Of a stretch of 64,000 bases of DNA, positions 25,501 to 56,920 are shown one piece after another (position 1 is the stretch's first letter; each line of letters opens with the position of its first letter). The stretch lies in NCBI GenBank assembly GCA_964016885.1, contig OZ024741.1:310992001-311056000 (forward strand), written 5' to 3'. This DNA comes from Eledone cirrhosa (lineage: Eukaryota). The position numbers and the translations under genes are program-made. The notes beneath the pieces were generated by a model, which did not search any database, was not told the origin of the DNA, and worked only from the letters and a program-made list of their open reading frames with translations.

Positions 25501-26161
25501 TAACATGTTTTAACGGATTTACGTACGTGTGCGCGTGTTTATGTGTACGTGCTTTATATGCAGGCATGACGTGTGTTTTCATGTAAGCATGTGTATGTAC
25601 GTATATAGATGTGTGTACGTATTTTAATTATTATTACTTTTATGATTTTAGTAACCTCTGTCATTTTCGTTCAACTAATTCATTTACATTATTCTTAACT
25701 CCGAAGCCGTGAATCATTTGGCTTCCTAAATAGAGTATTAGTCTAATGACTCCATTTATACCATAAACGTGGTTTTGTCTTTTGTTCTACCCCTCCACAT
25801 AACGACGTATTATCTTGACTTTTTTCCGTTCATTGCCACGGAACGTCTTCACGAGCCAAAGTATCGTCTCTCCTATTTTCCTTCGGTTGCAACGTTTTTC
25901 GAAATATTCACTTCTGCGTTCACATTGATTTTTTGATTTCAGAAGATCCCGTTAAGTGTGAAACTAGCGATTCTCTGCTTAAACTGAAATCTGTTATTTA
26001 AAAAAATATATATATATGTATATATATATACATATATATATATATATATATATATACATATATATATGTATATATATACATATATATATATATATATACA
26101 TATATATATAAAAAATAAAGTAAAATAAAAGTCAAATGTTTAAAATTTAGCTTCGTTTATT

Positions 26162-26216
26162 ACTGCTATATATATTTCGGTGACAGCCATCTTTGGCTGT
26201 GACCTCTTCAGGCAGT
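26162..26216 (-). ncRNA. Minimal type I hammerhead ribozyme motif
   Basis: ACTGC-CTGAAGA-GGTCACAGCCA AAGA TGGCTGTCACC-GAAA-TATATA-TA-GCAGT. Confidence 0.85.
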
Positions 26217-26386
26217 CCGAATTAGTGTGGTATAGACAAGTACATATATTGTTGAAGTGCATAATTTTGTCAATACTCTGATATGCCCAGTTACTGGTTG
26301 GGTTGTTATTTCACTGAGGAACTGGAATCATATATATGATTCCAGTTACAACAATATATGTACTTGTCTATGCCAGACTAATTCGG

Positions 26387-26443
26387 ACTGCCTGAAGAGG
26401 TCACAGCCAAAGATGGCTGTCACCGAAATATATATATAGCAGT
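26387..26443 (+). ncRNA. Minimal type I hammerhead ribozyme motif; predicted cut after 26438 (AUA)
   Basis: Stem I ACTGC/GCAGT, CTGAAGA at 26392-26398, 11-position stem II with one mismatch, GAAA at 26425-26428, palindromic stem III. Confidence 0.88.
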
Positions 26444-26744
26444 AATAAACGAAGCTAAATTTTAAACATCTGACTTTTTATTTTACTTTATTTTACATTA
26501 CTCCGGAGTAACCAAACCAACCTGCGCACTTCGTCGAGTGTTCCAGCCTGCATACTGAGGTGTTGGTATACAACCAACATATACTCAAAATCTCTCTCTC
26601 TCTCTCTCTCTCTCTCTCTCTCTATATATATATATATATATATATATATATATATATATATATATATATATATATATATGTATATATATTTCGTTTCTGA
26701 ATTTGTTTAGCAAGATTCTTTATCTGAAAACATGTGTTACAACC

Positions 26745-28692
26745 CATATTGTTATACTTTGGGAGGGTCATGTTGCCAATAAGAAACACACGCACCAGTT
26801 GCTTTCACTTCAATTTATTATAATAAATTTATAAATTTAGACCACCTACCATTACCTCAATGGCCAAGAAAACCCACACAGATAGATGGAACGGGTGGAC
26901 CAGAGCCATTCGGACCCCCGAAAACCACGATGAACTAAAGAAAATGATTGCACATGCGGTGGGGGCCAGCATAAAATTAACCCTTAAGGAACATATGTTC
27001 GAATTTAATGGGAAAACATATGCCCAAGAGGAGGGAGCAGCCATTGGTGTTAGCATTGCAGGCGACATAGCTAACTTATTCATGGTATGGTGGGACAGTA
27101 GACTTAAACTTAAACTTAAAGAACAATTAGAAGATCCCTTAACCCTGATAATGTAATCCCGCTACGTTGATGATATATACATCGTAGTTAAAACACCCCC
27201 ACTAGAGAACAGTCAGGAATTAGAGAAAACACAATGAAAAGCATCCAGCAAATAGCTAACTCCATCCACCTGAGTATTAGAGTTACTATAGACTACCCAA
27301 GCAAACACCCCAACCATCGATTACCTGTACTAGACACAGAGCTCTGGTTAGATACCATTAATAACAAAAAACAAATCCTCCATTCCCATTATGCCAAACC
27401 CATGACTTCCAAATATCTGATCCACCGAAACTCAGCTGTTTCGGACCATACCAAAATCAACATACTGATTGCAGATTTGGTACGGGTGATGAGAAACGTG
27501 TCCCGGATGTGCAACCCCGAAGAACTAGAGAGACACATACAACACTTCATCCACCGTATGCAGTTCTCTGGTTACAATCAGAGAGATAAAATCAGAGTGT
27601 ATAGAGGAGCCAGAACCAAATGGGAAAAAATGGTAAATAATGACACAAATGGGACCTGCCCATTGTATAGGAGCAAATTTTGGAATAGAATAGAAAGAAC
27701 TAGGAATAAGGCTAATAGAATAAACTCATGGTATGATAGCAATAAATATCAGAATGTAATGTTCATCGATAGAACCCCTAGAGGTGAATTATCTTACAAA
27801 TTTAGAAGGGCCCTAGATAAACATATACTCAATATTAAGATAGTAGAAAGACCAGGTTCCTCCATAAAAAACTTATTAGCAAGACATACCCTTTTCAAAG
27901 ACCTCCATGTATAGATAAGAAATGTATAATCTGTAAATAAAGCCACCATGTTAACTGTAAAACTAGAAATGTAGTATATAGCATAAGATGTACTGAAGGA
28001 CAATGTAGAGATAAAAATATAGTGTACATAGGTGAGACAGCTCGTAGTATAGGGGAACGGACAAATGAATACTGGCGAGACCTTCAAGATAGTAGAGAAT
28101 CATCTGTACACTACCAACATGCTAAAATGGAACATAAGGGTAAATTAGAGAACATAGAAATAAAAATCGAATCTACACACAGAAAAGACGCAATGTTTAG
28201 ACAAATCACAGAGGCAATAAACATAAATGAATTACAACCCAAATTAAATAGAAAACATGAGTGGAACAGCAACATCACAACTTACAATTATGGATAAAAT
28301 GAAACCACACACACACATAGAACAAACAACCAACCAGTAACATGTAAATAAACAAATAAATAAACGAATATAAACGCACACAGACACCCGGATGTAACAC
28401 ATGCGCAAACTAAGCACACAACACACACACAAAAACAAGATGGCGTAGGACAGAACAAAGGAGAGGCACAAAAAAACAAAGAAAAGAACCCCCAGTCACT
28501 GAAGAGGTCACAGAATGAGTGACGAAAGAACCTTGACAATATATGAACAACCATCTGGTTGTGGAACCAACCAACCAACCGGAAATTTATAAATTACTAA
28601 ATTTATAAATTTATTATAATAAATTGAAGTGAAAGTTACTGGTGCGTGTGTTTCTTATTGGCAACATGACACTCCCAAAGTATAACAATATG
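26745..28692 (+). mobile_element. 5'-truncated Penelope-like element (RT plus GIY-YIG; Naiad-like by motif impression) with inverted terminal repeats, in TA-rich sequence
   Basis: FEFNGKTYAQEEGAAIG..IANLFM, RYVDDI, LPVLD, HYAKP, VVYSIRC..VYIGETAR, RQITEA and LNRKHEW. Inverted repeat 26745-26841 versus 28597-28692. Degenerate CTGAAGA..GAAA at ~28499-28527. Confidence 0.9.
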
Positions 28693-29315
28693 TATATATA
28701 TATATATATCAATGATATTAATAAATGGAAACTATATTTATAAAACAATATTTATTCTATTATATATATTTTAAGTGTACGCTCTCATTAGTTAAAATAC
28801 AAAGTTTGTTTTACAAATATTGACATATCCAGGAATGAGACATAAAGGTCTCATTCCTGGATATGTCAATATTTATGAAACAAACTCTGTATTTTATCTG
28901 TGGTGTATGATTGGAAATATGTATGTCTATGTGTATATATATATATATATATATATATATATATATATATATATATATATATATATATAAAATAAAAAAA
29001 AATAAAATAAAAATCTCTCTCTCTCTCTCTCTATATATATATATATACATACATAGACATACATATTTCCAATCATACACCACACACACACACACACACA
29101 TATATATATATATATATATATATATATATATATATATATACATATATATACACAGGTACACATACAAACAGACACACACACGCACACACATACACACACA
29201 CATATATATATATACATACATATACATATATACACATACATATATAAACATACACGTGTGAGTGAACATAGACGCAAAAACTAATATGTAAGTAATCCCA
29301 AAAAATAAATATGCA

Positions 29316-55188: not shown

Positions 55189-55191
55189 TCT

Positions 55192-55697
55192 ATCAAAGTT
55201 CTGTTCAAACTATTTATTAGCTTACAATTGTTTCATCCAAACCGTGGTTTGGTGTCTTCGGAGCTTTTTTCAATGTTTGTTTACATACATGACCTCCTTT
55301 CCAGCACAAGAGACATACAGATAGATATATATATACTGATGCACAGTGGGGTGACATCCATTATATTATTTCTGAATGGCAATTTAAATTCAAAAATTAA
55401 AATCATATTAAAACAGAATCAAAGCAAAATTAAAACAACTGTATTTTAATTTGCTTTGATTCTGTTTTAATATGATTTTAATTTTTGAATTTAAATTGCC
55501 ATTCAGAAATAATATAATGGATGTCACCCCACTGTGCATCAGTATATATATATCTATCTGTATGTCTCTTGTGCTGGAAAGGAGGTCCTGTATGTAAACC
55601 AACATTGAAAAAAGCTCCGAAGACACCAAACCACGGTTTGGATGAAAAAATTGTAAGCTAATAAATAGTTTGAACAGAATTTTTGATTCATGTGAAT
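55192..55697. mobile_element. ~490-bp foldback element, copy 1; hammerhead-variant motifs at 55219-55265 (-) and 55613-55659 (+)
   Basis: ~240-bp near-perfect arms, spacer CAACTGTA; AGCT-CCGAAGA-CA-CCAAACC AC GGTTTGG-AT-GAAA-CAATTG-TA-AGCT. Confidence 0.88.
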
Positions 55698-56301
55698 TCT
55701 ATATAACTGCTCTGTAGAACAACTGATGTTATTACATTGAGCTATTTATCTTACTGGTAATAAGGTAGTAATAAATTACTGTCTTTCACTGTTTAGGGTT
55801 TAAAATATATATAACTATAAAATTTTTTAGTATATACATAACCATAAATAGTATCCTTAATACTATATATATATATATATATATATATATATATAAGGCA
55901 GACACTGTCTTGATAACCACCAGAGTCATAAACGAAGATCGCTGAGACTTACCCATCCTTACCTCTGTTGGAATCCGTTAGAAGGCTCTTCCTCATCAGC
56001 CTCCATTCATAGCTGAAGACTTTTCAATTGTTTATTAATATTATACACCAGACCACCGGTGATCCATTGCATCACATTTACTTTCAAAATGTTTTTTTTT
56101 TAAATCCTGTTCACTTAAACATAATTTTTAAATGATTAAGATATACACAGACATGTATATCATGTGCAATGAAACCGGGTGGTCTATATATATATATACG
56201 TGTGTGTATGTATGTATATAAATGTGTGTGTGTATATCTATATATGTGTGTGTGTGTATATATATATATATGTGTGGGTGTATGTGATCTATATACACTG
56301 G

Positions 56302-56791
56302 TATTTATTAGCTTACAATTGTTTCATCCAAACCGTGGTTTGTACTCTTCGGAGCTTTTTTCAATGTTTGTTTACATACATGACCTCCTTTCCAGCGCAA
56401 GAGACATACAGATAGATATATATATATATTGATGCACAGTGGGGTGACATCCATTATATTATTTCTGAATGGCAATTTAAATTCAAAAATTAAAATCATA
56501 TTAAAACAGAATCAAAGCAAAATTAAAATACAGTTGTTTTAATTTTGTTTTGATTCTGTTTTAATATGATTTTAATTTTTGAATTTAAATTGCCATTCAG
56601 AAATAATATAATGGATGTCACTCCACTGTGCATCAGTATATATATATGTATCTGTATGTCTCTTGTGCTGGAAAGGAGGTCATGTATGTAAACAAACATT
56701 GAAAAAAGCTCCGAAGACACCAAACCTCGGTTTGGATGAAACAATTGTAAGCTAATAAATGGTTTGAACAGAACTTTGATTCATGTGAATT
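56302..56791. mobile_element. ~490-bp foldback element, copy 2; hammerhead-variant motifs at 56310-56356 (-) and 56707-56753 (+)
   Basis: Same arms as copy 1; spacer TACAGTTG is the reverse complement of the copy-1 spacer. Confidence 0.88.
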
Positions 56792-56869
56792 ATCTCTCTC
56801 TCTCTATATATATATATATACATTTAGAAATATTAGAACTATTTCATTGAAATGTAATAATCAGGAAAG

Positions 56870-56920
56870 CCGTTTCCTGATGATTTCTTTGGATGAAACT
56901 ATTCTAGTCCTGTAGAAGCG
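56870..56920 (+). ncRNA. Degenerate hammerhead-like motif (relative at ~50897-50945, minus strand)
   Basis: CGTTTC-CTGATGA-TTTC TTT GGAT-GAAA-CTA TTC TAG-TC-CTGTA-GAAGCG. Confidence 0.45.

What the first reader, a model, noticed from the sequence alone, without database searches (positions are those of the whole stretch)
26112..56920. Shared architecture: unrelated (TA)n-embedded mini-elements built as inverted arm + arm + extension, each with a hammerhead motif
Seen: at least six sequence-unrelated short elements (26112, 42243/46967, 45962, 49992, 51054, 55192/56302) share this layout, have no ORF and mostly sit in or beside (TA)n, close to four coding Penelope-like elements. Known: Penelope insertions often carry an inverted pLTR at the 5' end. 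Inference: this is a diverse set of non-autonomous ribozyme retroelements mobilised by Penelope RT/GIY-YIG into (TA)n, or extreme 5'-truncation products. Either way it is a dense source of hairpin RNA.
Basis: partly seen in the sequence, partly recalled or inferred. Interest (0 to 1): 0.72.

Follow-up and report, generated by a model that had tools for sequence, protein, structure and literature searches.

The report
Penelope-type mirror-arm insertions in (TA)n
The short palindrome-plus-tail elements are the usual insertion products of Penelope-like jumping genes in TA repeats, four of the six families carry a hammerhead self-cutting RNA motif and two carry none, so the finding is real but mostly ordinary for this kind of genome.

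Summary
The layout is real. Six families of ORF-free elements sit in or beside (TA)n, each as an inverted arm, a direct arm and an extension, next to four degenerate Penelope-like (PLE) coding remnants.

It is the published PLE insertion signature: a fixed 3' end, 5' truncation, an inverted 5'-truncated copy and a one-sided "tail" (Craig et al. 2021). I found the same layout in the autonomous PLE-A and PLE-C copies of this genome.

"Each with a hammerhead" holds only in part:
- Four families carry a PLE-type type I hammerhead with a palindromic helix III.
- Window copies are intact in 26112 and 49992, and mutated in 45962 and 51054.
- The 42243/46967 and 55192/56302 families have no CUGANGA word on either strand (0 of 30 copies each).
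- Rfam detects none of them.

The families differ in origin:
- 55192/56302: extreme 5' truncations of an autonomous PLE with a CxCx5C linker.
- 26112 and 45962: truncated copies of 690-860-nt non-coding elements.
- 49992 and 51054: retrozyme-like tandem units.
- 42243: a fixed ~165-nt hairpin element derived from a longer one.

Earlier notes of this scan describe similar two-armed Penelope/hammerhead repeats elsewhere in this genome. These are new members of a known kind.

The parts
26112..26590 (+). e26112. Inverted arm 26112-~26300, direct arm ~26303-26494, 96-nt tail 26495-26590, then (TC)n(TA)n 26591-26689. Hammerheads at 26387-26443(+) and 26162-26216(-).
   Evidence: The fold shows helices I and II, z -2.8 and -3.7. 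Family data.
26690..28691 (+). PLE-A copy. rc(tail) 26690-26745, rc(last 95 nt) 26745-26840, then the direct 5'-truncated body with RT/GIY-YIG remnants 26839-28288. Hammerhead-like motif ~28490-28540. Ends ...aacaatat + (TA)n without a tail.
28711..28933 (.). Further mini-element between two (TA)n runs, with an 86-nt hairpin at 28803-28888.
   Evidence: Not followed up.
37106..38981 (+). PLE-B remnant: RT C-terminal part and GIY-YIG.
41936..42050 (-). Partial inverted copy of the 42243 family, between (TA)n runs.
42246..42409 (+). e42243. 39-nt arm, loop cgtcg, 39-nt arm, ~80-nt tail, with (TA)n on both sides. No hammerhead core.
45145..45955 (-). PLE-B' remnant with a CNCRAGTQC linker and GIY-YIG. 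It is 5'-truncated at the TA run next to e45962.
45962..46391 (+). e45962. Arms 45962-46303, tail 46304-46391. The hammerhead is mutated in both arms.
46966..47164 (-). e46967, a subfamily of 42243 with a longer loop.
47219..49760 (-). Fourth PLE remnant. EN homolog at 48549-48310. Direct terminal repeat (pLTR) 49755-49600 ~ 47360-47225.
49775..49965 (-). Another mini-element whose tail is 73-77% like that of 42243/46967.
49998..50812 (+). e49992. The left copy (minus sense, 49998-~50195) ends at the tail end. The right copy (~50196-50812, 1.2 units of a ~530-nt unit) ends at the internal site. Hammerhead at 50679-50757.
   Evidence: The fold is not distinctive, z -0.34.
51054..51584 (+). e51054. 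One ~424-nt unit with its own 127-nt hairpin (51054-51180), a hammerhead remnant at 51344-51388 (5-nt deletion) and the start of the next unit.
55195..55863 (+). e55192. Arms 55195-55683 and a tail to 55863. It is the 3' end of autonomous PLE-C. No hammerhead core.
56303..56792 (+). e56302, a second PLE-C end. The right arm stops at the internal site and is followed by (TC)n(TA)n, with no tail.
1483..1618 (-).

Best explanation
These palindrome-plus-extension mini-elements are insertion products of Penelope-like retroelements in (TA)n. Each is a 5'-truncated copy joined head-to-head to a second, inverted copy, with a 56-155-nt tail on one arm only. They were likely made by target-primed reverse transcription started from both nicked (TA)n ends.

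Shown:
- Every family has a fixed 3' end next to (TA)n and variable 5' ends.
- About half of the sampled copies have an inverted arm whose outer end sits at one family-specific internal site, so that arm lacks the tail.
- The autonomous PLE-A and PLE-C copies of this genome have exactly the same anatomy.
- Four families carry a PLE-type type I hammerhead with a palindromic helix III.

The families have different origins:
- 55192/56302 are truncated autonomous PLE-C.
- 26112 and 45962 are truncated 690-860-nt non-coding elements.
- 49992 and 51054 are retrozyme-like tandem units of ~530 and ~424 nt.
- 42243 is a ~165-nt hairpin-plus-tail unit that derives from the last ~135 nt of a longer element and then amplified as a whole.

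Inferred:
- PLE RT/GIY-YIG mobilises the non-coding families in trans.
- The two alternative 3' ends are UA-rich words on the RNA where a ...TATA-3' target end can anneal, so one arm starts at the tail end and the other at the internal word.
- The hammerheads would cut multimeric transcripts as dimers.
For: Family anatomy. For each family 40 best candidates were scored and 30 loci were read.
- e26112: 591 first-look candidates at 96-98% identity. The 3' end is ...ctcaaaa + (TC)n + (TA)n. An inverted arm is present in 14 of 30 loci, with its outer end at q143-154. The longest copies are ~690 nt.
- e45962: 2277 candidates. An inverted arm is present in 17 of 30 loci, with the outer end at q163-174 in 15 of them. 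The longest copies are ~860 nt.
- e55192: 2197 candidates. 5' ends lie from 38 to >=1501 nt upstream. An inverted arm is present in 15 of 30 loci, with the outer end at q257-262 in 14. Upstream lies a GIY-YIG ORF with a CNCRSNRTC linker.
- e49992: 2684 candidates in head-to-tail units. 3' ends fall only at q536 or q125-130, and 5' ends are scattered.
- e51054: 5448 candidates in ~424-nt tandems.
- e42243: 30 of 30 loci hold the complete unit with (TA)n on both sides. Longer arm-less relatives exist in L235, L253 and L257.

PLE-A.
- 32,913 candidates. Copies end either at ...aacaatat + (TA)n or 56 nt further on.
- Of 7 two-armed loci, 6 carry the tail on exactly one arm.

(TA)5+ lies within 45 nt of the 3' end in 19/23, 30/30, 25/28 and 27/28 loci.

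Hammerheads.
- 4 sites in the window against a mean of 0.22 in shuffles.
- 233 sites in 222 loci (740,667 nt, a biased sample) against 1-4 in five block shuffles. Of these, 136 have a perfectly palindromic helix III and 111 have an opposite-strand partner within 1 kb.
- Helix I and II sequences differ between types yet still pair.

Literature (passages read).
- PMC8557442: inverted 5'-truncated copy, one-sided tail, (TA)n targets.
- PMC4209133: minimal hammerheads in pLTRs, dimers, palindromic helix III.
- PMC7229834: non-LTR retrozymes.
Against: - No Rfam hammerhead model reaches even E 10 on any of the ten elements.
- Two families have no hammerhead core at all.
- Several motifs depart from the canonical G10.1-C11.1 closing pair: a C.A closing pair in 49992 and 51054, and a C.C mismatch at the fourth pair of helix II in 26112 and 45962.
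- The folds of the 49992 and 51054 motifs are no better than shuffles, z -0.34 and -0.20.
- Pfam hits for the RT and GIY-YIG are all below the curated cut-offs (E 7e-4 to 0.01).
- No sequence link was found between the non-coding families and an autonomous PLE, apart from a shared 15-nt hammerhead word between e26112 and PLE-A.
- The internal site of e26112 is only weakly TA-like.
- One PLE-A two-armed locus has no tail, and e56302 has none either.
- Only the 40 best of hundreds to thousands of candidates were scored per family, so the samples are young copies.
Confidence: 0.85

Rival explanations
1. The arms arise by snap-back. One cDNA, primed at the tail end, folds back at its 3' end and copies itself, so the mirror arm is made from the first arm and not from a second priming event.
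For: - Hinges are variable and often lie at small local palindromes.
- The arms of e42243 subfamilies change in concert in L070, L072 and L076.
Against: - In PLE-A the tail-less arm is about 1.85 kb while the tail-bearing arm is about 150 nt, and in L030 the arms differ in length. A self-copy cannot be longer than its template.
- Snap-back also does not explain why the second arm stops at one fixed internal site.
Confidence: 0.15
2. The template is a hammerhead-cut, circularised RNA copied by rolling-circle reverse transcription (the retrozyme model). The two 3' ends are simply two entry points on the circle.
For: - 49992 and 51054 occur as head-to-tail multimers with one hammerhead per unit.
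- The window copy of 49992 is 1.2 units long.
Against: - 5' ends and hinges do not coincide with the predicted cleavage sites in 26112 or 45962.
- 42243 and 55192 have no hammerhead.
- No RNA data were available.
Confidence: 0.3
3. The palindromic elements are foldback or MITE-type DNA transposons that target TA.
For: Long inverted arms, small size, no ORF and TA-rich targets.
Against: - The arms are adjacent at one end, with a one-sided tail, and are not terminal on both ends.
- 3' ends are fixed while 5' ends and hinges vary.
- Partial tandem units occur.
- The same anatomy is seen in RT/GIY-YIG-coding copies.
Confidence: 0.03
4. The palindromes are assembly artefacts of TA-rich repeats.
For: Craig et al. 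2021 note that such structures trouble assemblies (PMC8557442, passage read).
Against: The same families occur at dozens of loci on many contigs, with locus-specific hinges and flanks.
Confidence: 0.02

Closest known systems
Penelope-like element insertion architecture (Craig et al. 2021, PMC8557442, passages and section 11 read; it cites Evgen'ev and Arkhipova 2005 and Arkhipova 2006, which I did not read)
   Same: High 5' truncation, partial tandems (pLTR), an inverted 5'-truncated copy at the 5' end, a tail present at only one end, and (TA)n insertion bias (Naiad, Hydra).
   Different: - Tails here are 56-155 nt, not the 30-40 bp described.
- Most copies in the window are extreme truncations of a few hundred nt.
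- One such product (42243) appears to have become a replicating unit of its own.
[quoted passage not shown]
   Same: [quoted passage not shown]
   Different: - Helix III is a (UA)n run in 26112 and 45962.
- The closing pair is C.A in 49992 and 51054.
- There is a C.C mismatch at the fourth pair of helix II.
- No cleavage data exist.
Metazoan non-LTR retrozymes (Cervera and de la Pena 2020, PMC7229834, passages read; Li, Clavereau and Pollet 2026 preprint 10.64898/2026.07.22.740005, abstract read)
   Same: Non-coding AT-rich tandem units with one type I hammerhead each, thought to be mobilised by PLEs (49992, 51054).
   Different: - Units are 424-530 nt, against the 150-450 bp described.
- The copies show PLE-style mirror arms and tails.
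- circRNA was not tested.
Hydra clade of C-terminal-EN PLEs (Craig et al. 2021, section 11 read)
   Same: CxCx5C linker before GIY-YIG (PLE-B', PLE-C) and insertion into (TA)n.
   Different: - No hammerhead was found within 1.9 kb of the PLE-C 3' end.
- PLE-C looks longer than 3 kb.
- The DKT motif and the absence of CCHH were not checked.
Twin priming of human L1
   Same: It works alike: a second target end primes on the RNA internally and gives an inverted 5' part.
   Different: In L1 the two parts do not overlap. Here the arms copy the same stretch and the internal start site is fixed.

Membership tests
PLE-made insertion | Fixed 3' end with variable 5' truncation | tested here: met
PLE-made insertion | Inverted 5'-truncated copy adjacent to the direct copy | tested here: met
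   Present in 14/30, 17/30 and 15/30 loci. Seen in PLE-A.
PLE-made insertion | Tail extension at one end only | tested here: met
   The outer end of the inverted arm is fixed upstream of the tail. In PLE-A, 6 of 7 two-armed loci have exactly one tail. e56302 and L107 have none.
PLE-made insertion | Partial tandem (pLTR) | tested here: met
   49992 and 51054 tandems and the PLE4 terminal repeat. Not seen for 26112, 45962 or 42243.
PLE-made insertion | Autonomous partners encode an RT plus a GIY-YIG endonuclease | tested here: inconclusive
   RVT_1 E 7e-4 and GIY-YIG E 1e-3 to 1e-2, all below the Pfam cut-offs. The 833-aa ORF has 190 relatives at E<=1e-10, some of which carry PF01541 or PF00078.
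PLE-made insertion | Non-coding families are copied in trans by the PLE enzyme | not testable with these tools
   Only shared anatomy, plus a 15-nt hammerhead word shared by e26112 and PLE-A.
Type I hammerhead ribozyme | CUGANGA and GAAA cores in the order C-G-S with a U-H cleavage site | tested here: met
   Met for the 26112, 45962, 49992 and 51054 families. Not met for 42243/46967 and 55192/56302, 0 of 30 copies each.
Type I hammerhead ribozyme | Helices I and II supported by covariation | tested here: inconclusive
   Different types keep pairing with different sequences. No formal covariation test was run. The families are young.
Type I hammerhead ribozyme | Match to the curated Rfam models | tested here: not met
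   RF00163 does find another family in this genome: 18 of 74 scored candidates are over the cut-off.
Type I hammerhead ribozyme | Self-cleavage | not testable with these tools
   No assay, and no RNA run was listed.
Non-LTR retrozyme | Short non-coding tandem units, each with a type I hammerhead | tested here: met
   49992 (~530 nt) and 51054 (~424 nt). Not met for the other four families.
Non-LTR retrozyme | Expressed as circular RNA | not testable with these tools
   One search listed no RNA holder.
Hydra-clade PLE | CxCx5C linker and (TA)n target | tested here: met
   CNCRAGTQC and CNCRSNRTC. (TA)n. The other clade marks were not tested.
MITE / foldback DNA transposon | Inverted repeats at both termini of the element | tested here: not met
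   The arms abut each other and the tail is one-sided.

The most novel reading that the evidence does not exclude
The long-unexplained one-sided tail and mirror arms of Penelope insertions arise because both ...TATA-3' ends of the cut (TA)n target prime on the element RNA at two UA-rich words. Such an insertion scar can itself become a new ultra-short retroelement. The 42243 family would be an example: a ~165-nt hairpin-plus-tail unit without any ribozyme that is now amplifying, with 8 of the 40 scored copies identical.
Probability: 0.3. Interest if true: 0.6.

Novelty: new member of a known kind. Interest (0 to 1): 0.4.

Why it matters
For annotation, dozens of apparently unrelated palindromes in TA repeats of this genome can be read with one rule: two head-to-head PLE copies with one tail. 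They should not be called MITEs, miRNA hairpins or new ribozyme classes.

For transposon biology, the families give a clean natural data set on PLE integration. Each has two alternative fixed 3' ends, five of seven internal ends lie at TA-like words, and there is one tail per insertion. This makes a priming model testable.

The data also show that hammerheads are optional for this mode of spread, because two abundant families lack them.

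Tried and rejected
- Rfam at gathering score and at E<=10 gave only miRNA-like hairpin noise.
- Pfam on 166 frames gave only weak GIY-YIG hits.
- Non-circularly permuted hammerheads (Eckert et al. 2023, PMC10085705, passages read) were considered for 42243 and 55192. They were rejected because the CUGANGA block is absent.
- An ADAR-type A-to-G signature in the arms was tested: 13 G:U-type, 10 A:C-type and 37 other mismatches in eight palindromes, so there is no polarity. 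Only e56302 shows 6 against 0.
- The search for RNA runs listed no RNA holder, so no reads were laid.
- Sensitive blastn of the minis against PLE-A, PLE-B, PLE-C and PLE4 sequences found no link, apart from the 42243-like tail at 49772-49849.
- I could not tell whether the longer source of 42243 (L235, L253, L257) is coding.
- A look-up of earlier notes near the window returned nothing.
- Supplements of the papers, such as the hammerhead lists of Craig et al., were not opened and may already hold similar families.
- No Repbase-type library was available, so 'not described' is not claimed.

Full report
WHAT IS THERE

The window lies on a 416-Mb contig of a ~3.0-Gb assembly. Between 26 and 57 kb it is AT-rich and full of (TA)n runs.
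- 26111-26494
- 42246-42330
- 45957-46303
- 49989-50405
- 51054-51180
- 55195-55683
- 56303-56760
- the copy at 46966-47164

Each has extra sequence on one side only. The longest stop-free frames are 56-93 aa. Pfam finds nothing in them.

Four degenerate PLE coding remnants lie among them:
- PLE-A, 26839-28288(+). It covers residues 393-833 of an intact 833-aa ORF found elsewhere in the genome.
- PLE-B, 37106-38981(+).
- PLE-B', 45588-45145(-).
- A fourth, with an EN homolog at 48549-48310(-).

The Pfam RT and GIY-YIG hits are all below the curated cut-offs (E 7e-4 to 0.01). The 833-aa ORF has 190 relatives at E<=1e-10. The best named one is a hypothetical/RT-domain protein of Octopus vulgaris at 62% identity.

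HAMMERHEADS

Rfam gives nothing:
- 0 matches at gathering score.
- No ribozyme among the 150 listed of 210 matches at E<=10.
- None among all 43 matches when the ten elements were searched alone.

A strict descriptor of my own finds 3 sites. A relaxed one finds 4 distinct sites, against a mean of 0.22 and a maximum of 2 in 100 dinucleotide shuffles.

- The two arms of e26112 each read ACUGC-CUGAAGA-[10-bp helix II]-GAAA-(UA)n-A^GCAGU. The minimum-energy fold shows helices I and II, with z -2.8 and -3.7.
- e49992 reads UUCC-CUGAUGA-...-GAAA-CUAAUUAGUU^GGAG, with the palindrome ACUAAUUAGU as helix III. Its fold is not better than shuffles, z -0.34.
- The e51054 family reads ACGGUG-CUGAUGA-cAGCUaauaAGCUa-GAAA-CUAGUU^CAUCGU, with the palindrome ACUAGU. 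It occurs in 36 sites across 30 loci. The window copy has lost 5 nt at the cleavage site.
- The e45962 family reads UAUUUUAU-CUGAUGA-GGACGUACUG...CAGUACCUCC-GAAA-UAUAUAUA^AUAAAAUA. Both window arms are mutated.
- The 42243/46967 and 55192/56302 families have no CUGANGA word on either strand, in 0 of 30 copies each. This also excludes the permuted forms of Eckert et al. 2023.

In 222 fetched loci (740,667 nt, a biased sample) the relaxed descriptor finds 233 sites, against 1-4 in five block shuffles. Of these, 136 have a perfectly palindromic helix III and 111 have an opposite-strand partner within 1 kb. Different types keep helices I and II with different sequences. These features match the minimal PLE hammerheads of Cervera and de la Pena 2014.

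FAMILIES

For each family the genome search scored only the 40 best candidates. I read 30 loci per family.

e26112:
- 591 candidates at 96-98% identity.
- The 3' end is fixed at ...ctcaaaa, followed by a variable (TC)n and then (TA)n.
- 5' ends are variable. The longest copies are ~690 nt and have no ORF.
- 14 of 30 loci have an inverted arm. Its hinge varies, but its outer end is always at q143-154, so it lacks the last ~95 nt.

e45962:
- 2277 candidates with a fixed 3' end.
- 17 of 30 loci have an inverted arm, with the outer end at q163-174 in 15 of them.
- The longest copies are ~860 nt and have no ORF over 76 aa.

e55192/56302:
- 2197 candidates.
- 5' ends lie from 38 to >=1501 nt upstream.
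- Upstream lies a GIY-YIG ORF preceded by CNCRSNRTC. This is the CxCx5C form that Craig et al. give for the Hydra clade.
- 15 of 30 loci have an inverted arm, with the outer end at q257-262 in 14.

e49992:
- 2684 candidates in head-to-tail units of ~530 nt.
- 3' ends fall only at q536 or q125-130. 5' ends are scattered.

e51054:
- 5448 candidates in ~424-nt tandem units, each with its own ~100-nt hairpin.

e42243:
- 616 candidates. 30 of 30 loci hold the whole 158-172-nt unit with (TA)n on both sides.
- 8 copies are identical.
- Subfamilies differ in the loop.

e46967 subfamily:
- Hinges vary.
- Three loci lack the inverted arm and run 120-350 nt further upstream.
- The hairpin unit therefore derives from the end of a longer element.

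THE SAME ANATOMY IN CODING COPIES

PLE-A has 32,913 first-look candidates. Its copies end either at ...aacaatat + (TA)n or 56 nt further on, at ...gaaacgaa + (TA)n.

Of 7 two-armed loci, 5 have the tail on the inverted arm only, 1 has it on the direct arm only, and 1 has none.

The window's own PLE-A copy begins with rc(tail) and rc(last 95 nt) at 26690-26840, and ends without a tail at 28691.

This is what Craig et al. 2021 describe: 5' truncation, pLTRs, an inverted 5'-truncated copy, a tail at one end only, and (TA)n targets.

MECHANISM (inferred)

In five of seven families the internal end sits at a TA-like word (tatta, attaat, tatata, tattatt, caatat). The tail end also abuts (TA)n.

I propose that both ...TATA-3' ends of the cut target anneal to UA-rich words of the RNA and prime two cDNAs, one starting at the tail end and one at the internal word. 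The two cDNAs are then joined head to head at a variable hinge.

A snap-back copy fits less well, because the tail-less arm can be far longer than the tail-bearing arm. A circular template remains possible for the tandem families.

NEGATIVE AND OPEN POINTS

- No RNA holder was listed, so expression, circles and small RNAs are untested.
- Arm mismatches show no A-to-G polarity.
- No sequence link to an autonomous partner was found for the non-coding families, beyond a shared 15-nt hammerhead word between e26112 and PLE-A.
- Earlier notes of this scan report similar two-armed Penelope/hammerhead repeats, retrozyme arrays and edited hairpins elsewhere in this genome. I used them as leads only.

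VERDICT

The hammerhead claim holds for four of the six families. The kind of element is known, and the families are new members of it.

Noticed in passing
window 26591-26622 and 56793-56806; loci L021-L050: A (TC)n tract of very variable length (0 to >30 units) sits between the fixed 3' end of the element and the (TA)n target, in e26112 copies and in e56302. (GA)n is seen at the outer end of inverted arms (L201, L087, L088). It looks like a templated or slipped 3' repeat added at initiation.
   Followed up: partly
hammerheads of e26112 (26399-26424), the e45962 family, and the 'AAGCG' type in L172/L192/L197: Three hammerhead types with unrelated helix II sequences share a C.C mismatch at the fourth pair of helix II.
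   Followed up: no
window 56867-56930 and 50893-50937 (minus strand): Two copies of the 3' end of yet another family (...cctgtagaagc.atttct + TA), carrying a weak CUGAUGA...GAAAC motif that fails the descriptor.
   Followed up: no
window 29424-29880: A 205-bp unit repeated 2.2 times, containing a tRNA-like box (ggcgggatttgaactcagaa), possibly a SINE-derived tandem.
   Followed up: no
window 33667-34457: A minisatellite of a 12-nt unit (TTTTCCTCTGTC), about 66 copies.
   Followed up: no
window 58095-59267 (+): Three adjacent open frames that look by eye like a non-LTR (LINE-type) reverse transcriptase remnant. They gave no match to the PLE proteins used in the window tblastn and were not scanned against Pfam.
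   Followed up: no
L235:1600-1700: The long relative of the 42243 family ends with a partly duplicated tail (two ...ccttaccacac...cgtt stretches in tandem).
   Followed up: no
flanks of L172, L175, L192, L196-L199, L201: Many further hammerhead types with palindromic helix III (UGAUCA, CCGCGG, CCGAUCGG, UGCGCA) lie within 1.5 kb of the fetched copies, often as inverted pairs.
   Followed up: partly
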